Assembly: GCA_000004985.1 (NCBI GenBank)
Contig: GG738863.1
DNA from: Naegleria gruberi
Lineage: Eukaryota
Length of the DNA stretch: 64,000 nucleotides
Direction: 5' to 3' (one strand)
The notes beneath the pieces were generated by a model. It did no database searches, was not told the DNA's origin, and worked only from the letters and a program-made list of their open reading frames with translations. Made by a program: the position numbers and the translations under genes. Of this stretch, positions 7,228 to 53,211 are shown piece after piece (within the stretch, counting starts at the first letter, position 1; every line of letters begins with the position of its first letter).

Positions 7228-8277
7228 TTATTCTTCCTTAGTTTCTGCTGATTCTGATTCCTCCTTTCCGTTAGCAGCTGTTTCAGTTTCGGATTCGCCC
7301 GACTTTTTGGTTTGCTTCTTTTTCTTATTTTTAGCTGAAGAAGCAGCCTTACGTTTTCTCTTCTTGGTTGGGTATCCTTTGTTTTGTGGATCTTCATTGA
7401 AATCCAAGATTCTCTTGATGAGTTCCTTCTTAGTACCTGTTGAGTTGACACCATTTGTTTTACAGAATTCTTTAAGTTCCTCAGTCCAATAATTTTGGAA
7501 TATTTCTTCATAGTCCTTGCAATCTTTCAACTCTGATCTGTTGGCTTTAATTTGTTCATTATGTTCTTCACGTCTAGCCTTTGAATCCTTTCTACCATCA
7601 ACTGTCTTTTTCTTCTTCTCCTTCTTTTCCTTCTTTTCCTTCTTTTCTTTTGGTTTCTTTTCCTTCTTATTGTTCTTCTTTGGTTCCTCCTCTTCATCTT
7701 CATCAGGGAGAATACCACTGAATACTTGACCTAGAATCAAGTCTGTATAGTTTGCCTTGGTAAATTTAGCCTTGGTTTTAAGTTTGAGATTTTCACAGGT
7801 TTGTTTCAATTGTTCCTCTGATAAATGACCAATAATTATAATTGTTCCATCCAATAAAAACTGATCAGCAATATCTTCGGCAAATTGTTTTTCATCGGAT
7901 GCATCTGTCTCAAAATTAAGTATTTGAGCAAACTTTTTAAGTGTGGACATTTTCATCTTGCTCAAAAAACCTTCTGGGCCATTAGGATCCAGTTCAACAC
8001 TATCAAGGAATTTTTCTCCAAGAGTTGATAATGCTGTTACATCATCAGCAAGTTCAACACTAGCTTCCTTCATCGATGATTTTAATGTTTTAGCATCAAG
8101 CTTTTCTACAAATTTTCTGATACCTTGCTCGTATGCCCAATCGATCAGGTCGTCACTCATTTCATTAACATTATTTTTATAATCCATTTTGGTTGCCTCC
8201 ACCATGGTTTTTAAAACATCTTCATTAAACTTTTTAAGTAACTTTGACAAATCTTCTACCGTAGTTTTAGATGACAT
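7228..8277 (-). CDS. SAP-domain nuclear protein with a Lys/Glu-rich repeat region
   Basis: 349-aa ORF. The C-terminal WTEELKEFCKTNGVNSTGTKKELIKRIL fits the SAP (SAF-A/B, Acinus, PIAS) helix-loop-helix motif. A (KEKKEKK)n tract is encoded by the 7595-7680 microsatellite, and the basic tail resembles a nuclear localisation signal. DEK-like is possible but not established. Confidence 0.55.
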   Translation of the reverse strand: MSSKTTVEDLSKLLKKFNEDVLKTMVEATKMDYKNNVNEMSDDLIDWAYEQGIRKFVEKLDAKTLKSSMKEASVELADDVTALSTLGEKFLDSVELDPNGPEGFLSKMKMSTLKKFAQILNFETDASDEKQFAEDIADQFLLDGTIIIIGHLSEEQLKQTCENLKLKTKAKFTKANYTDLILGQVFSGILPDEDEEEEPKKNNKKEKKPKEKKEKKEKKEKKKKTVDGRKDSKARREEHNEQIKANRSELKDCKDYEEIFQNYWTEELKEFCKTNGVNSTGTKKELIKRILDFNEDPQNKGYPTKKRKRKAASSAKNKKKKQTKKSGESETETAANGKEESESAETKEE

Positions 8278-8621
8278 TTTGATGATCTAGAGTGTCAATA
8301 TAATAAATTAATTTCCTACTATTATTTCTTATCCGTTTTAAACAATCACAAAATTTTTCCAACAAAGCCTCTGTTGTTGTATGATTAAAAATGTGGCCGG
8401 GTGTTGCAAAAAGAGAGTGTGGTTATTTTTTTTGAAAAATAAAAAATTAATTTTTTCTTACAACTGCCAGAATCCTTTTTAGCGGGTGAAAAATTATCTT
8501 GAAATAAGTTCCGCAAAAGAAAGGATTCTGCTTGGTGTTGTTTTTTTGGTTGACAATTTTTGTAAACTAAAAGTTTTTATTGTTTTCACACGCAAAAAAC
8601 TTTTATTGAACAACATCAACA

Positions 8622-10442
8622 TTACACTTCAAATTGACTTGCCCAATCAATGACGTTTTCTAATAATTCAATAATAGTCTTTTCTTCGTCTGACATTTCT
8701 TCTTCTTGAATATAGTCGTGGACAAGGTCTAATGTACTTGGAATGTTCTTTGTATTACTGAGTTGCATAATGTATAAAAGTAAGCCGTAGAGAGTTGTAT
8801 CACTCAGTGAACTGTAATCAGTAACTTGATTACAAATTTCAACAATCTTTTTGTGGAAGTTTACGAGAGTATCAAGAGTGGCATAGGGTGTCTTTCCAAT
8901 ATTTAAATTATCTAAAATAATAATGGCAGGTTCAAACAAGTCGGCTGATCTCAGTATTCCCTCATCATCCACTCCTAAATCATCAAATGTCACTGGACCA
9001 ATATCTTCCAACTTTCCTTCAATTTCCTTGTTTTGATTTTGAGTTTCATAGACTTCGACAAGAGTTCTATATACACGTTTCATGACACCCTCAGCAAATG
9101 CTTTGGTAATGTAATGTCTCAATTCCATACTTTGAAGTGAGCTCCAATATTGTTCAAGCGAGTTGACTATTGCTGTTGCAAGGTCAGCAATTTGTTTGTT
9201 TGCCTCTCCTACATTAAGCCAGGCTGTATCCTCTTGTTTTTGGAATTCAGCATTGAATTTCTGAGTAAAATGAATTAATAGATTATTAATTGGATGTTGG
9301 GAGACTTGATCTGCAATTTCAGAAATGTGTGAACGAATCATGGCCCATTGATCTTCAGGGGATTCTGTCAATGATAATTCTCTATCAAAGAGCTCATCCC
9401 TAGTCTTGAAAGTTCTCTCCTTTGTATAGATTGAAACGAATTTGGATGATACAAGCTTATTCCAAGGATTACCATCCGATCCATCAAAAGTTGTAGATTC
9501 TCCATCCCAGGCCTCTCCCAATTTGATACTCTTTCTCTTCTCCGAAGGATCAACACCAAATGTTGAAACATCAGAAAGTGAAACAGAAGCACGGTTTCTT
9601 GCCGAATCGAGAGGAGAATTAATTCTTGGAGTGATTGCTCCTGGAGGAGGTTGGAACTCAATAACAGGTCCAGAAAGTTGAACAGAAGATCTATTAGACA
9701 TTGTTCCTAAAGGTGGTTGAATTGCCGATTGTAAAGAGTCTCTTCCATAAGAGCTTGTTGATTGTCTAAGTGTTGATTGAATGATTGGTGAGTTTGAAAG
9801 TTGTGGCGAGATTGTTGGTGATGAATTATTGGAAATATTTGGTTGCAAGTTTGTTGATGGAAGCGAAGGTGCTGATGGATTAGTACTGCCATTACTGAAT
9901 GGCATGTTGTTACTGATTGGAGGAGGTGTATTGAAAGTCATAGATGATCTCAATGAATTGACATCACTAGGTGTGTTGCTTGTTGTTGAAGTAATGGAAG
10001 ATCTATTGGAGAAATGGAAGGATGAATTCATAGAGGTTGGTATTTGTTGTAAAGATGATGAAGATGAAGAATTGAAACCACTACTTGGTATATTAATCAT
10101 TGAAGTTGATAGATTTGAATTTCCGGTAACTCCAATACCAAATGAATTATTAGGAGTCAAAGTATTGCCACCTGAAGAAGAATTTGGTATTTCCTTGTCC
10201 ACAATATCGGAAACTCTTTCAAAGCACATTTTACAAATCTTTAAAGCTTGAGAAACTTGTTTAAATGTTTGTGCATTTGATTTCAATTCCTCTGCCAAGT
10301 TATCTTCCTTCAATAATTGTCCAAGTGAAAGCATACAAGCACCATATTGCTTCAGTGCTTCACTAAAATTACGTTGTTCATCTCTTTTAATTGCTTCACT
10401 ACTTTTCAATTTGATAGAGTGAATATTAAATTGATTCACCAT
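8622..10442 (-). CDS. hypothetical protein: N-terminal MIT-like helical domain, long Ser/Asn-rich linker, C-terminal VPS9-like (Rab GEF) region (tentative)
   Basis: 606-aa ORF. The N-terminus EAIKRDEQRNFSEALKQYGACMLSLGQLLKE...ALKICKMCFERV resembles a MIT three-helix bundle. The C-terminus ...LSDTTLYGLLLYIMQLSNTKNIPSTLDLVHDYI loosely matches the VPS9 core (GADDFLPVLIYVVL..NPP.L.SNLQYI). The domain calls are low confidence. Confidence 0.55.
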   Translation of the reverse strand: MVNQFNIHSIKLKSSEAIKRDEQRNFSEALKQYGACMLSLGQLLKEDNLAEELKSNAQTFKQVSQALKICKMCFERVSDIVDKEIPNSSSGGNTLTPNNSFGIGVTGNSNLSTSMINIPSSGFNSSSSSSLQQIPTSMNSSFHFSNRSSITSTTSNTPSDVNSLRSSMTFNTPPPISNNMPFSNGSTNPSAPSLPSTNLQPNISNNSSPTISPQLSNSPIIQSTLRQSTSSYGRDSLQSAIQPPLGTMSNRSSVQLSGPVIEFQPPPGAITPRINSPLDSARNRASVSLSDVSTFGVDPSEKRKSIKLGEAWDGESTTFDGSDGNPWNKLVSSKFVSIYTKERTFKTRDELFDRELSLTESPEDQWAMIRSHISEIADQVSQHPINNLLIHFTQKFNAEFQKQEDTAWLNVGEANKQIADLATAIVNSLEQYWSSLQSMELRHYITKAFAEGVMKRVYRTLVEVYETQNQNKEIEGKLEDIGPVTFDDLGVDDEGILRSADLFEPAIIILDNLNIGKTPYATLDTLVNFHKKIVEICNQVTDYSSLSDTTLYGLLLYIMQLSNTKNIPSTLDLVHDYIQEEEMSDEEKTIIELLENVIDWASQFEV

Positions 10443-10924: not shown

Positions 10925-13475
10925 ATGATCAACAATAACAATGCGGAGTCTCATCATCAACAGGGGAGCGGTATGATGGCCAATCAGACAAACCGAAGAG
11001 TTGTGGCTTCTTCTTCGAAACAATCGGCCATTGTGAGAGGACAATGTTTATTTTTATTGGGAAGTCCGTATCTTGGAAAGAGTGGTTATTTTGAACAAGA
11101 ATACGAAATTAAAGGATTTGAGAGGATTAGCTTTGAAAAGGATAGAAGGAAAACGTTTGAAAGGATTTTTAATTTGCTCTCACAAAATAGGAATATAGTA
11201 ATTGATGATGAACAAATCATGTCTCTTACTGAAGCTANNNNNNNNNNNNNNNNNNNNNNNNNNNNNNNNNNNNNNNNNNNNNNNNNNTAAGTTTTGATTT
11301 GATTGAACAAATCAAATTGAATGAAAAATTTATCATGGATATTCAAGCTTCACTAGGAGAAAATAATGGAAATTCATCTCTAATTTACCCAACCAGTGAG
11401 GAAAAATTTGACAAGTCCACTAAGAAGGAAATGTCACTCTATGTGAATAGAAGTGAATCAGAATTTTCCTACCACACACTCATACTAGATGCCTGTTCCT
11501 CTAATTTATTTACCTATGATACAAAGAAGAGAAAAATTCATTTCAAAGATGCACAAAAAATTAAGGAATTGATTTTGAAATGGACTGAAAGGAGTAAGGA
11601 TACACGAGTAGTTGTCATTTTCAGTGATAAAGACTCTTTCAGAGTTTCTCTCAATATACCTGCTAATCATGTCAATTCTTTAAATGTAATGCATTTGTTG
11701 AGAAATGCCATAATGGAATTGTCATTACCATCACCTGTTTATTATTGTACAGATAATGAAAATAAGGATATTTTTCTACTTATTTGCCAGGTAAGTTTAT
11801 ATTTTATTATTTACCGATTTAATCTATCCTATAATAATTATTCCAGATATTTTACGTTTATTCTATTAAAACGAGTGAATCATTATTAATTTCAGATAAC
11901 AAGATTGATTTACCAAAGACTATATTCAAATTATTCCCAAAACTTTCCTTAATAGATTATTCGAGCTTCTTCTCATTGGAAGATTTAAAATCACATTCAT
12001 TAGAACATAACAATACACCAATATCTAACAATGAAATTATTCCATTAGATTTCAATTCAAATGCAAGAAATATTGAAGCACCAAAACAAAGAAGATATCC
12101 ATTACTGAATCTTTTAAGCGAATCTGAGAATATGACGGATGAGTCTTACGTAGAGTACACTAAAAAGGGAATGTATCACGGTATGATTCTACAGAGACAA
12201 TACATTTCATATTTCGAATATAAGGAAGACTTTTTCGAATGCTCTGAACCAATTTTACTGAATGAAGAAAGTCAATCGAGAGTTATTCTATTTGATGACT
12301 TGGATAGAATGGAAGATGATGACAATCAGGAAGAGGAGCAGGAAGAGAATCCACTAGAAAGACTGAAAAGATTAAAAGAAATGTACAATAGGACAAAACA
12401 TTTAGATTCACAAGGAAGAGCCAATAGTAACGAAGCATATACGAGTGTTACTGTCGCGGGGTCATCTTCTACTGGAGTGTTTGCCATCAAAGATCCCTTT
12501 GGAAGAACAAATTCAACAAATATACCATCCCAAAATGATGGTATGGAACTTTCAACAGCTTCTCAAATGGAAAATGCTGCTCACAATCAGACATCATCAA
12601 CTGGTGTGATGGCCAATAGCGTTTTAGCTGACAGTAAAGTACTTTCAGCTCTCGTTGTGAACATGTCCATTCACCAAGTTATGAATCATTTTGGAATGAC
12701 ATTCTTTCAAAGAGGAAGAGACTATAAGAATGAATACAGAATTGATAATTTCAAAACTAAAATTATCAATAATGTTGCTTTCAAGCTCTATAGTACCTGT
12801 GTTGGTACGAGACCTGAACCATACAAGCAAGAAAGTATCATTAAGGAAGGAAAACTTTTGAAGGCTATTTGTAATTGTCCTATTGGAGCAGAAGGCACAT
12901 GCAAACATATTTGTGCTCAAATTCTAGCATTTAGAGAAAAGGACAAGTATATGAGAGAAAAGTTTGAATCTTTGAACAGTTCCAAGTCTGATAGGTTACT
13001 TCCTCCACCAATACCATTCTCTCAATTAGATCCAGTTCTAGATGATTGGTGTATCAAGGTAAAGGTTATCAAGAAACACAATGAGAAATCATGGGCCAAC
13101 GAGAGAGGTTCTGGACGTGTAGCTGCCATCACCATTGCTGATGAGCTTTCAGGAGATATGTCCCTCTCCTCAAAACAAAACAAGGTTAAATTGATCATGT
13201 TTAATGATTGTATCAATGAATTTTATGATCAAATGGAAGAAGGCGAAAGTTATTATGTCAATAAGGGACATTTAATCAAAAAGCCACACGAAGATTTCTT
13301 TGAAATTCAATTATGTACCAATACTGTAGTAAGAAATATTCATCAGCTCAATGTTAAATTTAAGGATCAACATAATACAAGCGCAGACTATTCAAGAATA
13401 TTCCAAGAGAAACTTCAAACTAAAAATATAGGAATTGAATTTGAGGAATATCCACTCAATTCAAGTACCACATAA
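10925..13475 (+). CDS. multidomain protein: P-loop kinase-like N-terminus, SWIM zinc finger, RPA70-like OB fold (one gene spanning an assembly gap and one intron)
   Basis: ATG at 10925. LFLLGSPYLGKSGY is a Walker A motif of the PNK/AAA_33-kinase type, and ...NIVIDDEQ is Walker B-like. The gene runs across the N-run 11237-11287. The exon ...LLICQ ends at a GTAAGT donor (11791), and a 56-nt intron (11791-11846) rejoins in frame to IFYVYS..., which is continuous with ORF 11976-13475. C-terminal half: CNCPIGAEGTCKHICAQILAF (SWIM CxCxnCxH), then WCIKVKVIKKHNEKSWANERGSGRVAAITIADELSGDMSL...GESYYVNKGHLIKKP, which closely matches the RPA70 DBD-A OB-fold consensus. Confidence 0.6.
11237..11287. other. 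assembly gap (51 N)
   Basis: Run of n inside the coding region of the 10925-13475 gene. Confidence 0.99.
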
Positions 13476-13484
13476 TAATTCCAT

Positions 13485-14673
13485 GATTGAACCATCTCCT
13501 GAAAAGAAGAGAAAGATTGAGCAAGTCATTTCTCAAAATAATGCAGAGAATGAAAATATTGAGGATCAAGAAGAGGAGGACCAACCAGAAAGAAGAATAG
13601 TGAATAATGAATACGAATCACCAAATAAGAAGGCAAAACTACCATCCATTGATACTAGGTTTGATGATATTATGAATGCTCAAACAATGGAAAGCCAACA
13701 CTCAATCATTGCATCTCAACCAATGACCTCAACATCCAACGAATCCTGCAAGTCACAAATTATCAATACTCCAAGTACAGGTAAAAAGTCTCAGGTCATT
13801 GAAGAGGAAGTATTCAATGTTGATGAAGATGAGGAAATTCATCAAGTAATTGTTCAAGATGTAGATGAGGAGGAGGATGGGCCAATATTTACTAGTGACA
13901 ATTATCAGAAACCGGCCACTGAGTCTATCCTCGCTAAATCACAACCTTTGAGTTCATCAGAACTAGCAACAAAACCAAACACATCCTCTTCCACTGTACC
14001 ATCCAATAACAACTCACAAAAGAGTAACCATTCCAGTAACAGCTCGAGCACACCCACTCCAAAACCTCATTATTACTTTGATGAAAATGAACAGAGTCAA
14101 ACATTTGAAGATATTTTCTTTACTCCATTCAAAACTCCACAAACTTGCTCCACAAACAAAACAACACCTTCATCCACCTTCTCCCTCAATGCCAAACTAG
14201 AGAATATTCTTATTGACGATGAATCTTCCCCATTCTATCAAAGTGAATCAAAAACTAAGGACTTGATTCCTGATGATGATGTTCAAGAAATTGTAAATAG
14301 TCAAGAATTTGAAAGAAAACCAATGAGCCCTAAATCCCTAAGTCAACACAACAAGCCACAAGTTTTGGATTATGTTGTTTTGAGTGACAATGAAGAAGTG
14401 GAAATTTTGGACTTTGTCACTCCAAGAAAACCAATTCGTAAAAAGACCAAACCTCAATCCCCAATATTTCAACCTCCACCTCCTACCGATATTATTGTAA
14501 GGAAACCTTCTGCTTCAATAATTGTTGAAGAAAAACCAAACCAGCAACCAGAATCTTCCAATAATTCCACCTCAGCTTTAGATAATTCCACAACAACCCC
14601 TTCTTCCACCAAAACTCCTAAAAAAGTCAGTCTCAAATTCCTTCTCGATAACAATGACATGTCTGACTGGTAA
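13485..14673 (+). CDS. acidic Ser/Thr/Asn-rich low-complexity ORF: either a frame-shifted C-terminal tail of the preceding gene or a separate gene
   Basis: The long open frame (tool ORF 13435-14673) overlaps the last 41 nt of the preceding gene in the +1 frame. Its first ATG (MIEPSPEKKRK) lies only 10 bp after that gene's stop, too close for an independent promoter. No convincing intron links the two frames. Confidence 0.35.
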
Positions 14674-15099: not shown

Positions 15100-16524
15100 A
15101 TGCTCGATATCAACTTGTTAAGAGAATACAAGAACGGAAACCCTGAAATTGTCAGAGAATCCCAACGTAGAAGACACAAGGATGTTGCTCTCGTCGATAA
15201 AGTCATTGAATTGGATGCAGAATGGAGAAAGCTTACTGGTGAAGTTAATGGTATCAAGAACTTGGGCAACATTGTCAGCAAGGAAGTTGGTCAAAGAATG
15301 AAGGCTAAACAACCACTCGGTGATGATATTGAAATCCCACAAGAAATTTTGGCTACTGTCGATAAGAATTTTACAAAGGAAACTCTTGAAAGTGTTTTCC
15401 CTCAACTCAACACAAATCAATTGAAGAAACTTTCTAATCATATTACCGAAGTTCACGTCAAGCAAGCTGATACTGATGCTTCTAATAAGGAAAAGGAAAG
15501 AGATGAAGTTTTGCTTCAACTTGGTAACCTTGTTCACGAAACTGTTGTTGTTAGTGATAATGAAGATAACAATGGTATTGTTCGTTTGGTTGGTAATCCA
15601 AGACCAAAGGTTGATGACAGTGGATTCAAATGTCTTAAACATATTGATATCATGAGAAAGCTCGGATGTTTGGCTACTGAAGAAGGTACTCAAGTTGGTG
15701 GTGGTAGAGGTTATTTCTTGATGGGAGATTTGGTTAGATTGAACTTGGCTCTCCAAAATTATGCTATTCAATTTTTGACTGAAAAGGGATTCTGTCCAAT
15801 GTACACACCATTCTTCATGACAAAGGATCAAATGAAGAGAGTTGCTCAATTATCTCAATTTGATGAAGAATTATATACTGTTTCTGGTGAAGGTGAAGAC
15901 AAGTATTTGATTGCCACTTCTGAACAACCAATTGCTGCTTTCCACTTGGATAAGAGATTTGACGAAAGTGAACTTCCATTGAAGTATTGTGGTATGTCCA
16001 CTTGTTTCAGAAAGGAAGTTGGTGCTCACGGTAAGGATACTTTGGGTATTTTCCGTGTCCATCAATTTGAAAAGATTGAACAATTCGTTGTCACTTCTCC
16101 AAAGGACAATAAGAGTTGGGAAATGTTCGAAGATATGATTGGTAACTCTGAAGCTTTCTATCAATCTCTTGGTCTCTCCTACAGAGTTGTTAATATTGTC
16201 AGTGGTGCTTTGAACAATGCTGCTGCTAAGAAGTTAGATTTGGAAGCTTGGTTCCCAGGTGCTGAAGAAGGTAACGAATATCGTGAATTGGTTTCTTGCT
16301 CTAATTGTACTGACTATCAAGCCAGAAGATTGAACGTCAGATATGGTAAGGCTGCTACTAAGGGTGATGCTGAATTCTGTCACATGTTGAACTCTACATT
16401 GAGTGCTACTTCTAGAACTATTTGTTGTATTGTTGAAAATTACCAAACTCCAGAAGGTGTTAATATTCCAGAAGTTTTACAACCATACATGGGTGGTACC
16501 AAATTCATTCCATACAAGAAGTAA
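15100..16524 (+). CDS. serS: seryl-tRNA synthetase (cytosolic class II aaRS)
   Basis: Single 474-aa ORF. It has an N-terminal coiled-coil arm (MLDINLLREYKNGNPEIVRESQRRR). Class II motifs: RFDESELPLKYCGMSTCFRKE (motif 2), GAHGKDTLGIFRVHQFEKIEQF, and the motif 3 region SCSNCTDYQARRLNVRY. Collinear with SerRS throughout. Confidence 0.95.
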   Translation: MLDINLLREYKNGNPEIVRESQRRRHKDVALVDKVIELDAEWRKLTGEVNGIKNLGNIVSKEVGQRMKAKQPLGDDIEIPQEILATVDKNFTKETLESVFPQLNTNQLKKLSNHITEVHVKQADTDASNKEKERDEVLLQLGNLVHETVVVSDNEDNNGIVRLVGNPRPKVDDSGFKCLKHIDIMRKLGCLATEEGTQVGGGRGYFLMGDLVRLNLALQNYAIQFLTEKGFCPMYTPFFMTKDQMKRVAQLSQFDEELYTVSGEGEDKYLIATSEQPIAAFHLDKRFDESELPLKYCGMSTCFRKEVGAHGKDTLGIFRVHQFEKIEQFVVTSPKDNKSWEMFEDMIGNSEAFYQSLGLSYRVVNIVSGALNNAAAKKLDLEAWFPGAEEGNEYRELVSCSNCTDYQARRLNVRYGKAATKGDAEFCHMLNSTLSATSRTICCIVENYQTPEGVNIPEVLQPYMGGTKFIPYKK

Positions 16525-49727: not shown

Positions 49728-50999
49728 ATGCCTCCTCGTAAGAAAGTAGAACAACAAACAAGTTCTTTTGCTTGTCTTGAAAATATTTCGGAACATGAAA
49801 TTCAACAAATTGCTGTTAAAAAGAGGAGAGGACGGCCAAAAACAAAGCCTTCTATTTATGCCGATTTTCCAATTGCTGATTGTATGGGAAGAAATTGGAT
49901 TTTGAGTAATGAAAGTGAATTGAGAAGCAAAGTAGATTCATTCCGATTAGTGTGTTATAATATGCTTTGTCAAGACTATGCAAAGAAACCATACTTTCCA
50001 CACTTGTCGGATACCACTGAAATTTTGAGTTGGATTAATAGAAAGCATAGATTATTGGATGAATTTTTAAGCTATCATGCTGATATTATTTGTTTACAAG
50101 AAGTTGATAGATATGGTGATCATTGGAGGGAAAGATTATTAAAGAATGGATATGAATCAACTTATACTCAAAGAACAGGTGGTAAACCTGATGGTTGTGC
50201 CACATTTTGGAAGAGTGAAAAGTTTGAAAGTATTAGAAATATACCAATTTTATTCAATGATGTAGCAAGACAAATTACGAAAAATAGTGAATTGGAAACT
50301 CATGAAAAGTGTGATTTGAATGGAAATGTAGTGACCAGTTCTAATTCAATTTCCAAGTTTCTGACTAATAATGTGGCTAATCTAACACTCCTCAAACATA
50401 GATCAAGTGAAAAGTTGGTTTGCGTTGTGAATTTACACTTGTTTTGGGATCCTTCATTCCCTGAAGTTAAATTATGCCAAATATTTTACACTATGAAACA
50501 GACAAAGGATTATCTCACTTCCCTATCACTTGAGGATATTCAAATATTCTTTTGTGGTGATTACAACTCAATGCCAGATAGTGAAGTTTATGAATTTTTA
50601 ACAAAAGGTCAGACCTTTATTCCAGGACACTTGATTCCATTTTATGCAGACTCTGACTTTAAAGATAGTATTTCTCTAGTTGAGTGTGAGAATGATGATG
50701 GTGAAAAAACTTTCAAACACCAAATTACCAATCCATTTGGGACTGCAACGAGTTTATACAAAGCTGTATGTGGAGATGAACCAACATTCACCAATTATAC
50801 CAAAAATTTTAAGGGATGTTTGGATTATGTGATGGCTTGTAATTATCCTACCAGTGGTGAAGAAAAGGGTATTCTTGTCAGTCGAGCATTACAAATACTC
50901 ACAGAAGAGCAAGCATCTGAGTTTGAAGCTCTTCCTTCGATCAAGAATGCCTCAGATCACATTTCCCATGCATTCGATTTTGACATTATGAAACTATAA
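49728..50999 (+). CDS. CCR4/nocturnin/angel-type endonuclease-exonuclease-phosphatase (EEP) family deadenylase-like protein
   Basis: 423-aa ORF. ...DIICLQEVDRYGDHW (the catalytic E of the LQEVD motif), ...GCATFWKSEKF, ...NLHLFWDP, FFCGDYNSMPDS and ...GCLDYVMA (the terminal D/H block) are in canonical EEP order. Confidence 0.8.
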   Translation: MPPRKKVEQQTSSFACLENISEHEIQQIAVKKRRGRPKTKPSIYADFPIADCMGRNWILSNESELRSKVDSFRLVCYNMLCQDYAKKPYFPHLSDTTEILSWINRKHRLLDEFLSYHADIICLQEVDRYGDHWRERLLKNGYESTYTQRTGGKPDGCATFWKSEKFESIRNIPILFNDVARQITKNSELETHEKCDLNGNVVTSSNSISKFLTNNVANLTLLKHRSSEKLVCVVNLHLFWDPSFPEVKLCQIFYTMKQTKDYLTSLSLEDIQIFFCGDYNSMPDSEVYEFLTKGQTFIPGHLIPFYADSDFKDSISLVECENDDGEKTFKHQITNPFGTATSLYKAVCGDEPTFTNYTKNFKGCLDYVMACNYPTSGEEKGILVSRALQILTEEQASEFEALPSIKNASDHISHAFDFDIMKL

Positions 51000-51005
51000 A
51001 TCAAC

Positions 51006-52349
51006 TCATACCAAGACCCTCTCTTCACTAATTTGTACAGAATTCATTGAATGAACATCTGTTGCTGTATCAATATTGAGATAAATATTGGTATTAGTGT
51101 CAGAGGCACGAATGGTTCCATTATTTTCAACTCTTGAAATTTCAAATTGTGGAGGTGGTTCATTCATTGAAATTAAATGAAGTTTTTGAGTCTTTCCACC
51201 TTCAATTTCACAAGTTCCTAGAAATCGTATCGTACAAACTTCGTCCAATATTGAAGCTGTTGTTCCATCACAAATTATTCCACTCTCTAAATGATCGATA
51301 GCATAATAACAATGAGCAATAGATGAATTGATTAATTCCCCATACAATCCAAAATGTCTTCTAAAATCCGATCCAACACTAGCTCTGTAACCATAACCAC
51401 TTGCAAATCCAACACCATCGACCTCTAAATTCTCCCTATGAATTAGTTCTTTCAAACAGTGAATTACTAATGAAGGATTGGACTCTGCCATATGTCGTTC
51501 AAAGCTCAATATAAATTTTAGACTCTTTCTATCAAAGAACATATCAAGAACACAACAGTTATATTGCTCTGAAACAACTTGAATAGAATTGACAATATTA
51601 TTCTTTGTTGCNNNNNNNNNNNNNNNNNNNNNNNNNNNNNNNNNNNNNNNNNNNNNNNNNNAATTAATTATATTCATTAATTTAGCTGTAGACAGAGGAG
51701 TGTTTGTTCCGAAAGTTTGAAGAGGAGCCATTAATTGTTTCCTCTTTCTAATAGTTGCATTTACCTGCTTAATAATCCTTTTCTTTTGAATTTTTGAATT
51801 AGATTTGAACCATTTTGCATCCTTTACAGTGTCTTGCAGATCTTTCTTTTTAGCCATTAATTCCATAGTATCACTAGGAGAAGCATTTACTATTAATGAA
51901 TTTAATGGAATACATTTTGCTCCCAAAATTTTCAATTGATTCTTTTTGGAAGTAACCTTGTCAGCTTTACGTTTTAGAACTAGAACACTTCTTTGATTAT
52001 CATCATGAGCAATAATGGAATAGGTTTGATTTTTTCTACTTGCAATCAGTGTTTCGAATGGAACAGTTTCAATATGTTGTAATTCTTCCTTTCTGATTTT
52101 ATAATTTTTAACCTTTTTAATTTTGTCAATGCATAGGGCAACATATTTTCTCTTCAACCATTGAAATACTCTATTACAACAAAATCCTTGATGAATGTGT
52201 TTCTTTAATTCTTTGGATGCAAGATTTCTTCCTGTTTTATTCAATAAAAAAGCTCTGTACCAACGTTTCTTGTTGTGAGTTGTTTGACAGCAAACACAAA
52301 CAGTTCCTTTATCAATTAGTTGTGTTGATCGTGATGACAACTTACACAT
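51006..52349 (-). CDS. hypothetical protein (Cys-rich basic N-terminus; interrupted by an assembly gap)
   Basis: 447-aa ORF reading across the N-run 51612-51661. MCKLSSRSTQLIDKGTVCVCCQTTHNKKRWYRAF..., with ...GYGYRASVGSDFRRHFGLYGELINSSIAHCYYAIDHLESG at the C-terminus. Convergent with the EEP gene, with 6 bp between stops. No family assigned. Confidence 0.45.
   Translation of the reverse strand: MCKLSSRSTQLIDKGTVCVCCQTTHNKKRWYRAFLLNKTGRNLASKELKKHIHQGFCCNRVFQWLKRKYVALCIDKIKKVKNYKIRKEELQHIETVPFETLIASRKNQTYSIIAHDDNQRSVLVLKRKADKVTSKKNQLKILGAKCIPLNSLIVNASPSDTMELMAKKKDLQDTVKDAKWFKSNSKIQKKRIIKQVNATIRKRKQLMAPLQTFGTNTPLSTAKLMNIINXXXXXXXXXXXXXXXXXATKNNIVNSIQVVSEQYNCCVLDMFFDRKSLKFILSFERHMAESNPSLVIHCLKELIHRENLEVDGVGFASGYGYRASVGSDFRRHFGLYGELINSSIAHCYYAIDHLESGIICDGTTASILDEVCTIRFLGTCEIEGGKTQKLHLISMNEPPPQFEISRVENNGTIRASDTNTNIYLNIDTATDVHSMNSVQISEERVLV
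51612..51661. other. assembly gap (50 N)
   Basis: n run inside ORF 51006-52349. Confidence 0.99.
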
Positions 52350-53161: not shown

Positions 53162-53211
53162 NNNNNNNNNNNNNNNNNNNNNNNNNNNNNNNNNNNNNNN
53201 NNNNNNNNNNN
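53162..53211. other. assembly gap (50 N)
   Basis: n run separating the duplicated EEP fragment from the sAC-like paralogue. Confidence 0.99.

What the first reader, a model, noticed from the sequence alone, without database searches (positions are those of the whole stretch)
10925..14673. P-loop kinase - SWIM zinc finger - RPA70-like OB-fold protein, possibly with a frame-shifted acidic tail
One gene, spanning a gap and a 56-nt intron, combines an N-terminal PNK/AAA_33-like Walker A/B kinase fold, a SWIM zinc finger (CNCPIGAEGTCKHICAQ) and a C-terminal OB fold that matches the RPA70 DBD-A consensus very closely (WCIKVKVIKKH..W.NERGSGRVAAITIADELSGDMSL...GESYYVNKGHLIKKP). SWIM plus ssDNA-binding OB plus kinase suggests a DNA-repair/recombination factor. 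I do not know a described family with this exact combination. The long acidic ORF that follows in the +1 frame (13485-14673) may be its true C-terminus.
Basis: partly seen in the sequence, partly recalled or inferred. Interest (0 to 1): 0.55.

Follow-up and report, generated by a model that had tools for sequence, protein, structure and literature searches.

The report
Amoeba kinase-like, SWIM, ssDNA-binding protein
This is one real Naegleria gruberi gene for a roughly 1,200-residue protein that joins a polynucleotide-kinase-like domain, a SWIM zinc finger, a single RPA70-type single-stranded-DNA-binding fold and a long disordered tail; the domain combination is undescribed, is named so far only in heterolobosean amoebae, and probably acts in DNA repair.

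Summary
The window is Naegleria gruberi, and 10925-14673 (+) is a single gene. It is interrupted by a 50-N assembly gap, a real 56-nt intron and a +1 frame break at 13452-13475. Orthologues in Willaertia magna (one intronless 3,576-nt ORF), N. fowleri and Acrasis kona are colinear from the P-loop to the last residues. The Ser/Pro/acidic ORF is therefore the true C-terminus. The GenBank model is wrong: it lacks the P-loop exon and hides the frame break with a false 151-nt intron.

Domain calls:
- **OB fold:** RPA70 DBD-A type (human RPA70, E 1e-9).
- **SWIM:** 98% hhalign probability to a bona fide SWIM protein.
- **Second α/β domain and a central motif:** unassigned. My HAD-phosphatase idea was not demonstrated.

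It is not an RPA70 orthologue, because the N-terminal OB, DBD-B and DBD-C are absent. Paralogues, including one in N. gruberi, replace the OB with an HMG box plus a Ku-binding-like motif.

Best reading: an ssDNA-targeted DNA-end-processing or repair scaffold. The function is inferred, not shown. Novelty: a new variant of a known kind. Interest is moderate.

The parts
10925..11237 (+). First coding segment: start codon and the N-terminal half of the PNK-like P-loop domain. Walker A GSPYLGKS is at 11060-11083 and the Walker-B-like IVIDD at 11195-11209.
   Evidence: It aligns with Willaertia residues 1-88 and the N. fowleri N-terminus. It is absent from the GenBank model P0001.
11238..11287 (.). 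Assembly gap of 50 N. By comparison with orthologues it hides about 47 residues (about 140 nt) of the P-loop domain, including strand 4 and the lid region.
   Evidence: One search gives the gap coordinates. Searches show Willaertia and N. fowleri carrying 'R..LIEKIK.E.P.C.I.CI.F.P...' at that position.
11288..11790 (+). Coding segment after the gap: the end of the P-loop domain and most of a conserved α/β (Rossmann-like) domain. That domain starts near 11389 and has an invariant Asp in LILD at 11479-11490.
   Evidence: The AF2 topology is β-hairpin-α-β-α-β-α-β.
11791..11846 (+). Spliceosomal intron of 56 nt, GTAAGT...TTCCAG.
   Evidence: It is needed to join the two frames. The spliced 'LLICQ|IFYVYSIK' aligns with Willaertia 'ITLCHLLYLYSVK'.
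11847..12659 (+). End of the α/β domain (to about 11972), a conserved central motif RRYPLLNLL...YKEDFFE (12090-12239), an acidic stretch (12294-12347) and a low-complexity linker.
   Evidence: The central motif is conserved in all 12 family members aligned but has no PDB or Pfam match.
12660..12938 (+). Extended SWIM zinc-finger domain, with the CxCx8CxH signature CNCPIGAEGTCKH at 12870-12908.
   Evidence: hhalign of family profile A8 against the bacterial SWIM protein P0155: 98.2%, E 5.6e-14, 93 columns. P0155 and P0025 pass Pfam SWIM. Relatives score sub-threshold Pfam SWIM hits at the same site. C, C, C and H are invariant in 11 sequences.
13008..13328 (+). Single OB fold of the RPA70 DBD-A type. 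The L12 loop WANERGSG is at 13092-13115. The conserved stacking Phe, in IMFND, is at 13194-13208. The L45 loop is shortened.
   Evidence: PDB phmmer and hmmsearch: 1ynx E 1e-7, 1jmc E 1.1e-9. Non-family hits in the 1.8-billion-protein search are full RPA70s aligned at their DBD-A.
13329..13472 (+). Coding linker after the OB fold (VRNIHQLNVKFKD...IFQEKLQTKNIGIEFEEY...). Part of it (13329-13465) is wrongly removed as intron by the GenBank model.
   Evidence: It is conserved in N. fowleri (VRNIHEVGVKFKD...IQFEEF), in P0006 and in Willaertia (IFKERLENQNKVIEFEEF).
13452..13475 (+). Zone holding a +1 frame break. The phase-0 frame stops at TAA 13473-13475. Deleting any one base in this zone restores a single ORF.
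   Evidence: Orthologues are uninterrupted here. Whether this is an assembly error or a real mutation cannot be decided from the window.
13476..14673 (+). Disordered Ser/Pro/acidic C-terminal tail in the +1 frame, with conserved short motifs:
- PSPEKKRK (13492-13515; NLS-like)
- SIDTRFDDIMN (13645-13677)
- FEDIFFTP (14104-14127)
- SLSQHNKPQV (14335-14364)
- YVVLSDNEEVEIL (14371-14409; SIM-like)
- C-terminal KKVSLKFLLDNNDMSDW (14620-14670)

The stop codon is at 14671-14673.
   Evidence: The motifs are conserved in Willaertia, N. fowleri, Acrasis and metagenomic members. The FF motif and the C-terminal motif also occur in the HMG-box paralogues.

Best explanation
The locus is one nuclear protein-coding gene of Naegleria gruberi. 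Its product is about 1,220 residues once the gap is filled. It belongs to a protein family whose named members are all heterolobosean amoebae.

Domain order:
1. A polynucleotide-kinase-like P-loop domain.
2. A conserved Rossmann-like α/β domain.
3. A conserved central motif.
4. An extended SWIM zinc finger.
5. One RPA70 DBD-A-type OB fold.
6. A disordered tail of about 400 residues with an NLS-like patch and several conserved short linear motifs.

Most likely mechanism (inferred, not shown):
- The OB fold anchors the protein on single-stranded DNA, such as resected ends, gaps or stalled forks.
- The SWIM domain adds a DNA or protein contact.
- The N-terminal P-loop module binds NTP and either phosphorylates 5'-OH termini or acts as a nucleotide-dependent switch.
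- The tail recruits partners through its motifs.

Paralogues keep the same N-terminal core, SWIM and tail motifs but swap the OB fold for an HMG box preceded by a Ku-binding-like motif. This suggests one core module delivered to ssDNA by this gene and to duplex DNA ends by the paralogue.

The stop at 13473 is most likely a one-base assembly error or a strain-specific lesion, and not a real gene end.
For: **Gene structure**
- Colinear orthologues exist in Willaertia magna (35% identity, 97% coverage, a single 3,576-nt ORF), in N. fowleri and in Acrasis kona.
- The neighbourhood is conserved: MIT/VPS9, SerRS, SAP and Exo_endo_phos genes flank both loci.
- tblastn shows the frame changes exactly at the gap, at the intron and near 13452.

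**OB fold:** E 1e-7 to 1e-9 against RPA70 DBD-A structures. The L12 loop and the F238-equivalent Phe (numbering from memory) are conserved.

**SWIM:** hhalign 98.2%, E 5.6e-14.

**PNK-like domain**
- Walker A is intact in Naegleria, Willaertia and Acrasis.
- Foldseek gives PNKP at probability 1.0.
- hhalign gives 83%, P 1e-5 to the real Lichtheimia kinase sequence, and 96%, 4.6e-9 to a four-sequence PNK profile.
- The Lichtheimia protein is a characterised RNA 5'-OH polynucleotide kinase (PMC11571804).

**DNA context**
- The variable module is always a DNA-binding domain. It is an OB fold here and an HMG box (E 2e-13) in the paralogues.
- All four HMG paralogues carry [KR]xxPxW at the same position. 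This matches the KBM core R-X-X-P-X-W (PMC4831024).
- N. gruberi is listed among the organisms in the DNA-PKcs phylogeny figure of PMC8021618.

**Tail:** the tail motifs are conserved across genera.
Against: - There are no functional data of any kind.
- In the HMM alignment the PNK general-base Asp position holds Glu (Naegleria) or Gln (Willaertia, Acrasis). Walker A is degenerate in some divergent members and paralogues (P0013, P0020, P0105). The domain may therefore be non-catalytic.
- Both AF2 models are low confidence (pLDDT 51 and 57), so the fold matches are only indicative.
- Pfam gives no significant hit for the N-terminal half.
- The closest sequence-level kinase relatives are RNA kinases, not DNA kinases.
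- The L45 loop, which carries the second stacking aromatic of DBD-A, is shortened in Naegleria and Willaertia. ssDNA affinity may therefore be modest.
- As assembled, the N. gruberi copy has an in-frame stop before the tail.
Confidence: 0.6

Rival explanations
1. The protein is a non-catalytic adaptor. The P-loop and α/β domains are pseudo-enzymes that keep only a structural or nucleotide-binding role, and the protein works purely as an ssDNA-bound scaffold for partners of the tail motifs.
For: - The catalytic Asp position is Glu or Gln.
- Walker A is lost in P0013, P0020 and P0105 while the rest of the architecture is kept.
- The α/β domain has only a lone conserved Asp and no recognisable catalytic motif set.
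- The most conserved parts are SWIM plus OB (62% identity against 35% overall).
Against: GK[ST] is strictly kept in the Naegleria, Willaertia and Acrasis orthologues over a long divergence. This argues for at least nucleotide binding. Glu can serve as a general base.
Confidence: 0.3
2. The protein is an RNA end-healing or RNA-binding factor and not a DNA repair protein. The PNK-like domain would phosphorylate RNA 5'-OH ends and the OB fold would bind single-stranded RNA.
For: The best sequence-level matches of the P-loop domain are the Mucorales tRNA-splicing RNA 5'-OH kinases. Trl1-KIN and bacterial Pnkp1 are among the fold matches.
Against: - The OB fold is specifically of the RPA70 DBD-A type.
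- Paralogues swap it for an HMG box, a duplex-DNA binder, with a Ku-binding-like motif.
- NLS-like KKRK patches are present.
Confidence: 0.12
3. It is a divergent RPA70 paralogue, a subunit of an alternative RPA complex, as the GenBank names imply ('replication factor-a protein', 'replication protein A DNA-binding subunit D').
For: The only database-recognisable similarity is to RPA70 DBD-A.
Against: It has a single OB fold. No Rep-A_N, REPA_OB_2 (DBD-B) or Rep_fac-A_C (DBD-C, the trimerisation core) was found in any member, whereas the true RPA70 hits of the same search have all of them. The other roughly 1,000 residues are unrelated to RPA.
Confidence: 0.05
4. In strain NEG-M the gene is really broken. 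It would be either a pseudogene or two products (a truncated protein ending at 13475 plus an untranslated tail), or the tail would be reached by programmed +1 ribosomal frameshifting at ACA-UAA-U.
For: The assembly shows an in-frame TAA TAA at 13473-13478 with no homopolymer nearby. Skipping the U of the UAA gives the best-scoring junction against N. fowleri, tied with two other deletion positions.
Against: - The 399-codon tail is fully open in a 33% G+C genome and keeps every conserved motif. Any lesion must therefore be very recent.
- Willaertia, N. fowleri and P0006 need no frameshift, so a conserved recoding signal is unlikely.
- The same assembly has several gaps.
Confidence: 0.12
5. It is a domesticated or active transposon-derived gene, with SWIM from a MULE-type transposase and the RPA-like OB fold captured as in Helitrons.
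For: From general knowledge, SWIM fingers and RPA70-like OB folds both occur in eukaryotic transposon proteins.
Against: - No transposase or helicase domain was found.
- The gene has a single syntenic locus shared with Willaertia.
- Orthologues are colinear in four genera.
- The closest SWIM relatives are bacterial stand-alone SWIM proteins.
Confidence: 0.03

Closest known systems
RPA70 (replication protein A large subunit), DNA-binding domain A
   Same: The OB fold at 13008-13328 is homologous to DBD-A (E 1e-9 to human 1jmc). This includes the W-x-N-x-R-G-x-G L12 loop and the stacking Phe of 'AFNE'.
   Different: Only this one OB fold is present. The N-terminal OB, DBD-B and the zinc-containing DBD-C trimerisation domain are absent. 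The L45 loop is shortened in Naegleria and Willaertia, and a Ser-rich insertion follows strand 3.
Polynucleotide 5'-kinases (T4 Pnk, mammalian PNKP, fungal Trl1-KIN and the Mucorales RNA 5'-OH kinase)
   Same: The fold is a P-loop kinase with GxxxxGK[ST] and a hhhD strand. These kinases are the best structural and profile matches. As in PNKP and T4 Pnk, the kinase is fused to a second α/β domain and to nucleic-acid or partner-binding modules.
   Different: There is no significant Pfam AAA_33 hit. The general-base Asp is not conserved (Glu or Gln). The second domain is not a demonstrable HAD 3'-phosphatase because it lacks DxDxT. There is no FHA domain. The fusion to SWIM and OB is not known for any PNK.
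SWIM zinc-finger proteins (Pfam PF04434; bacterial stand-alone SWIM family proteins; from memory, eukaryotic Sws1/Shu2/ZSWIM7)
   Same: The domain is an extended SWIM domain with F-x-RG-x-x-Y, a β-hairpin segment and CxCxnCxH, homologous over 93 columns to a bacterial SWIM protein.
   Different: Here it is embedded in the middle of a large multidomain eukaryotic protein, immediately upstream of a DNA-binding module. There are no Rad51-paralogue partners, SNF2 ATPase or transposase in cis.
APLF and PNKP-type DNA-break repair scaffolds
   Same: This is a resemblance in how it may work, not homology. Both combine an end-processing-type module with DNA or partner-binding modules and a disordered acidic tail bearing short motifs. 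The HMG paralogues carry an APLF-like [KR]xxPxW Ku-binding-type motif.
   Different: There is no FHA or PBZ domain. The Ku-binding-like motif is absent from this OB-type gene. No sequence homology was detected to APLF, or to PNKP outside the kinase fold.

Membership tests
RPA70 / replication factor A large subunit | DBD-A OB fold | tested here: met
   PDB phmmer and hmmsearch give E 1e-7 to 1e-9 against RPA70 DBD-A structures. Hits in the representative library are RPA70s aligned at DBD-A.
RPA70 / replication factor A large subunit | N-terminal OB (Rep-A_N), DBD-B (REPA_OB_2) and DBD-C with zinc ribbon (Rep_fac-A_C) | tested here: not met
   None is detected in the N. gruberi product or in any of 8 relatives at E<=1. 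All are found in the genuine RPA70 hits.
SWIM zinc finger (PF04434) | CxCxnCxH metal-binding signature | tested here: met
   CNCPIGAEGTCKH lies at 12870-12908. C, C, C and H are invariant in 11 family sequences.
SWIM zinc finger (PF04434) | Significant profile similarity to curated SWIM members | tested here: met
   hhalign of the family profile against P0155 gives 98.2%, E 5.6e-14. P0155 scores 28.4 bits against the Pfam SWIM cut-off of 19.6. The Pfam model itself gives only sub-threshold hits on relatives (best 17.3 bits) and none on the N. gruberi sequence.
Polynucleotide kinase-type P-loop kinases (T4 Pnk / PNKP / Trl1-KIN; Pfam AAA_33) | Walker A GxxxxGK[ST] | tested here: met
   GSPYLGKS lies at 11060-11083. 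The motif is conserved in Willaertia, N. fowleri and Acrasis and degenerate in P0013, P0020 and P0105.
Polynucleotide kinase-type P-loop kinases (T4 Pnk / PNKP / Trl1-KIN; Pfam AAA_33) | Fold and profile similarity to PNKs | tested here: met
- hhalign: 83%, P 1e-5 to the real Lichtheimia kinase sequence, and 96%, 4.6e-9 to a four-sequence profile of which two sequences were recalled from memory.
- Pfam AAA_33 gives only one sub-threshold hit, on Acrasis.
Polynucleotide kinase-type P-loop kinases (T4 Pnk / PNKP / Trl1-KIN; Pfam AAA_33) | General-base Asp after strand 2 (T4 D35; residue number from memory) and lid Arg residues | tested here: inconclusive
   The aligned position holds Glu in Naegleria and Gln in Willaertia and Acrasis, with acidic residues adjacent. 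In N. gruberi the lid region lies in the assembly gap.
HAD-superfamily 3'-phosphatase (PNKP / T4 Pnk phosphatase domain) | Motif I DxDxT and the remaining HAD motifs | tested here: not met
   Only the first Asp is conserved (LILDACSS, LILDFSSA). No second Asp or Thr is present.
HAD-superfamily 3'-phosphatase (PNKP / T4 Pnk phosphatase domain) | HAD Rossmannoid fold or profile similarity | tested here: inconclusive
   - The AF2 topology has a β-hairpin right after strand 1.
- The PDB hmmsearch is empty.
- hhalign to recalled PNKP, T4 Pnk and GmhB sequences gives below 1% probability.
APLF-like Ku-binding motif proteins | Basic patch followed by R/K-x-x-P-x-W | tested here: not met
   The motif is absent from this gene and from all OB-type members. 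It is present in all four HMG-box paralogues examined. The consensus comes from PMC4831024.

The most novel reading that the evidence does not exclude
Heterolobosean amoebae have evolved their own family of break-processing scaffolds, functionally analogous to PNKP and APLF. A common core (PNK-like P-loop domain, α/β domain, central motif, SWIM, FF-motif tail and a C-terminal KKxSLKxLL motif) would be delivered to single-stranded DNA by an RPA70A-type OB fold (this gene). The same core would be delivered to Ku-bound duplex ends by an HMG box plus a Ku-binding motif (the paralogue XP_002678549). This would be a modular system for choosing the DNA substrate of one enzymatic or scaffolding core.
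Probability: 0.2. Interest if true: 0.6.

Novelty: new variant of a known kind. Interest (0 to 1): 0.42.

Why it matters
**What is new**
- All the recognisable parts are known (PNK-like kinase fold, SWIM, RPA70-type OB, disordered motif-bearing tail). Their combination is not described in Pfam or in the searched literature.
- Among named organisms it appears only in Heterolobosea, the group that includes the pathogen N. fowleri.

**If the inferred role is right**
- It would be a lineage-specific way of coupling DNA-end chemistry to ssDNA recognition.
- The OB-for-HMG swap between paralogues offers a natural experiment on how a repair module is targeted to different DNA structures.

**Practical consequences**
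- The public N. gruberi gene model is wrong in two places: the P-loop exon is missing and a false intron hides a frame break.
- The 'RPA' names in GenBank are misleading.

Tried and rejected
**1. Intron explanations for the frame change**
- I enumerated all GT..AG pairs that join the two frames.
- A canonical-looking 103-nt candidate (13329-13431, GTAAGA..ATATAG) and the GenBank 151-nt intron (13315-13465) were both rejected.
- Both delete residues conserved in N. fowleri, P0006 and Willaertia.

**2. Pfam scans**
- Scans of the N. gruberi pieces and of the orthologues gave nothing significant for the N-terminal half.

**3. HAD 3'-phosphatase hypothesis for the middle domain**
- This would have made the N-terminus T4-Pnk-like in full. 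It was not demonstrated.
- The PDB hmmsearch was empty and hhalign to recalled sequences was non-significant.

**4. Word-indexed protein searches**
- The second and third searches were largely unproductive. They returned only a fragment and one bacterial SWIM protein.
- As a result, the family members found could not be fed to the structure predictor.

**5. Other dead ends**
- The central motif has no PDB relative.
- A canonical PIP-box reading of FEDIFF was rejected by inspection, because position 4 is Glu.
- The Rev1-interacting-region, SIM and XLF/PAXX-like readings of the tail motifs are memory-based resemblances that I could not test.
- Literature searches for the architecture found nothing.


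Full report
**Organism and gene identity**

The window is AT-rich eukaryotic DNA (about 33% G+C). A protein search with the assembled product returned two hits. One was a Naegleria gruberi entry named 'single stranded DNA binding, replication factor-a protein' (P0001, 1,043 aa, 98% identity). The other was a hypothetical protein of Willaertia magna (P0002, 1,191 aa, 35% identity over 97% of the query). The window is therefore N. gruberi, a heterolobosean and not an amoebozoan.

**Gene structure**

- an ATG at 10925;
- a 50-N gap at 11238-11287;
- a GTAAGT...CAG intron of 56 nt at 11791-11846;
- a long frame ending at TAA 13473-13475;
- a 412-codon ORF in the +1 frame running to 14673.

tblastn of the Willaertia protein against the window gives four colinear segments. 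They change frame exactly at the gap, at the intron and near 13452.

The Willaertia gene is one uninterrupted 3,576-nt ORF. Its neighbourhood shares MIT/VPS9, seryl-tRNA synthetase, SAP-domain and Exo_endo_phos genes with the window. These are orthologous, stable chromosomal loci.

Alignment with Willaertia and N. fowleri indicates that the gap hides about 47 residues of the first domain.

**The frame break**

I listed every GT..AG pair that could join the two frames. The GenBank model uses 13315-13465 (GTACCA...CAAG). A better-looking candidate is 13329-13431 (GTAAGA...ATATAG). Both are wrong, because the segment they remove is conserved protein sequence:
- N. gruberi VRNIHQLNVKFKD...IFQEKLQTKNIGIEFEEY;
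- N. fowleri VRNIHEVGVKFKD...IQFEEF;
- a Naegleria-like metagenomic protein with IAFEEY;
- Willaertia IFKERLENQNKVIEFEEF.

All three then run on without interruption into (I/V)APSPEKKRK-type sequence. In N. gruberi that sequence lies in the +1 frame.

Deleting any single base between 13452 and 13475 restores one ORF. The break is therefore a one-base discrepancy. It is most likely an assembly error in a draft that has several gaps, less likely a recent lesion in the laboratory strain, and least likely recoding. The window alone cannot decide.

Two consequences follow. The public model is faulty at both ends of the problem, because it also starts after the gap and so lacks the P-loop exon.

**OB fold**

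The single sequence matches RPA70 DBD-A of yeast (1ynx, E 1e-7), Ustilago and human. A two-species profile reaches E 1.1e-9 against human 1jmc over the whole domain.

In an exhaustive profile search of 1.8 billion representatives, the non-family hits to this region are proteins of about 600 aa. Pfam resolves them into Rep-A_N, DBD-A, DBD-B and DBD-C, with the match falling on DBD-A.

Conservation within the fold:
- The L12 loop (WANERGSG against WSNSRGEG) is conserved.
- The Phe of IMFND (AFNE in RPA70; F238 by my memory of the literature) is conserved in all OB-type members.
- The L45 loop, which in RPA70 carries the second stacking aromatic, is five residues shorter in Naegleria and Willaertia but long in Acrasis and other members.

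No member has any other RPA70 domain. The protein is not an RPA70 orthologue, whatever the GenBank names say.

**SWIM**

Pfam does not report SWIM on the N. gruberi sequence. It gives only sub-threshold hits, best 17.3 bits against a cut-off of 19.6, at the equivalent site in five of eight relatives.

The family profile does find a bacterial 'SWIM zinc finger family protein' (P0155). hhalign aligns 93 columns at 98.2% probability, E 5.6e-14. The alignment covers the F-x-RG-x-x-Y segment, the β region and CxCxnCxH. P0155 itself passes Pfam SWIM. UniRef names the N. fowleri orthologue 'SWIM-type domain-containing protein'. The SWIM call is sound.

**N-terminal P-loop domain**

Walker A (GSPYLGKS) and a hhhDD strand are present. 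Sequence searches alone are weak. The only sensible PDB hits are the Mucorales kinases (E 0.03-0.15) and PNKP (E about 2).

An AF2 model of the Willaertia N-terminus is of low confidence (pLDDT 51). Its best matches are nevertheless consistently polynucleotide kinases:
- Foldseek gives mammalian PNKP at probability 1.0.

The Lichtheimia and Rhizopus proteins are characterised RNA 5'-OH polynucleotide kinases (PMC11571804).

hhalign of a seven-sequence family profile gives 83% (P 1e-5) against the real Lichtheimia sequence.

I accept 'PNK-like P-loop domain'. Catalytic competence is open for two reasons:
- The general-base Asp position aligns with Glu in Naegleria and Gln in Willaertia and Acrasis.
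- Walker A is degenerate in some divergent members.

**Middle domain and central motif**

Between the P-loop domain and SWIM lie two conserved elements:
- an α/β domain with invariant D, W, R, P and Y;
- a motif of about 50 residues, R(F/Y)PLL...ITDE.YFE...HG(I/V)(I/V)L.R.YI..F.

- HMM and hhalign tests are negative.
- The DxDxT motif is absent.

I therefore leave this domain unassigned. The central motif has no PDB relative.

**The family**

The exhaustive search revealed full-length relatives. All named members are heterolobosean:
- N. fowleri FDP41_002594 (1,368 aa);
- Acrasis kona KAL0488844.1 (907 aa);
- Willaertia magna;
- N. lovaniensis (paralogue);
- several metagenomic proteins.

A paralogous branch keeps the α/β domain, central motif, SWIM, tail FF motifs and C-terminal motif. 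Its full-length members P0020 and P0105 also keep a degenerate P-loop domain. This branch replaces the OB fold with an HMG box (E 2e-13). It comprises N. gruberi XP_002678549, N. lovaniensis XP_044554048, P0020 and P0105.

All four paralogues carry [KR]xxPxW (for example KKKKTLPSWM and NRALPGWM) between SWIM and the HMG box. This fits the minimal Ku-binding-motif core R-X-X-P-X-W (PMC4831024). N. gruberi appears in the organism list of the DNA-PKcs phylogeny figure in PMC8021618. The OB-type proteins lack this motif.

**Tail**

The tail is Ser/Pro-rich and moderately acidic. It carries motifs conserved across genera:
- an NLS-like PSPEKKRK;
- SIDTRF(D/E)x(I/L)(M/L)N;
- an acidic-x-(I/L/V)FF motif, in one copy here and four to six copies in the HMG paralogues;
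- SLSQHNKPxV followed by VxLSD(D/N)E-type sequence, which from memory resembles SUMO-interaction motifs;
- a C-terminal K(K/R)xSLKxL(L/I/M).

Their partners are unknown.

**Interpretation**

Shown:
- one gene;
- the domain order;
- homology of the OB fold, SWIM and the kinase-like fold;
- family distribution among named organisms;
- the OB/HMG module swap.

Inferred:
- The protein binds ssDNA through the OB fold.
- It brings an NTP-binding, possibly 5'-kinase, module and a motif-rich tail to DNA lesions.
- The paralogue does the same at duplex or Ku-bound ends.

The main rivals are a purely non-catalytic scaffold, an RNA-directed function, and a really broken N. gruberi allele. I regard an RPA-subunit reading and a transposon origin as unlikely.

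**Verdict**

It is a new domain architecture built from known parts, in a lineage-restricted and uncharacterised family. It is of moderate interest, with a clear set of experiments that would settle its function.

Noticed in passing
Paralogue P0015 (N. gruberi XP_002678549 / NAEGRDRAFT_66231), residues about 599-610 and 627-693; also P0018, P0020 and P0105: HMG-box paralogues of this gene carry a conserved [KR]xxPxW motif (KKKKTLPSWM, NRALPGWM, EKSLPAWM) between SWIM and the HMG box. It matches the published minimal Ku-binding-motif core. They also carry 4-6 repeats of an acidic-x-(I/V)FF-x-x-K motif that occurs once in this gene's tail.
   Followed up: partly
window 10925-11237 and 13315-13465, compared with GenBank model P0001: The public N. 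gruberi gene model starts after the assembly gap, so it lacks the P-loop exon. It also uses a false 151-nt intron (GTACCA..CAAG) to bypass the frame break, which deletes about 50 conserved residues. The product name 'replication factor-a protein' is misleading.
   Followed up: yes
window 39498, 51612-51661 and 53162-53211: There are further assembly gaps in the window (one single N and two 50-N blocks), which shows draft quality. Gene models next to them may be affected in the same way.
   Followed up: no
window 7228-10442 (-), 15100-16524 (+) and 49728-50999 (+), compared with L001: The neighbourhood is conserved with Willaertia magna, though rearranged. A SAP-domain gene, an MIT/VPS9 gene, an intronless seryl-tRNA synthetase and an Exo_endo_phos gene flank the orthologous loci in both genera.
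   Followed up: partly
P0041 (Acrasis kona KAL0484434.1), P0027, P0113 and P0129: A third class of proteins shares this family's particular SWIM subtype. It has a different architecture: a long acidic N-terminal region, then SWIM, then a C-terminal coiled-coil-like segment. Function is unknown.
   Followed up: no
window 13260-13300 (OB L45 loop), compared with P0005, P0003, P0004 and P0007: Naegleria and Willaertia have a short L45 loop in the OB fold. Acrasis and several metagenomic members have a long one with a PNPN(Y/H/K) segment. This may mean different ssDNA-binding strength or mode within the family.
   Followed up: no
searches: The word-indexed protein search missed close relatives (N. 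fowleri, Acrasis, the N. gruberi paralogue) that the exhaustive HMMER search found easily. Negative results from that tool on low-complexity protist proteins should not be trusted.
   Followed up: partly
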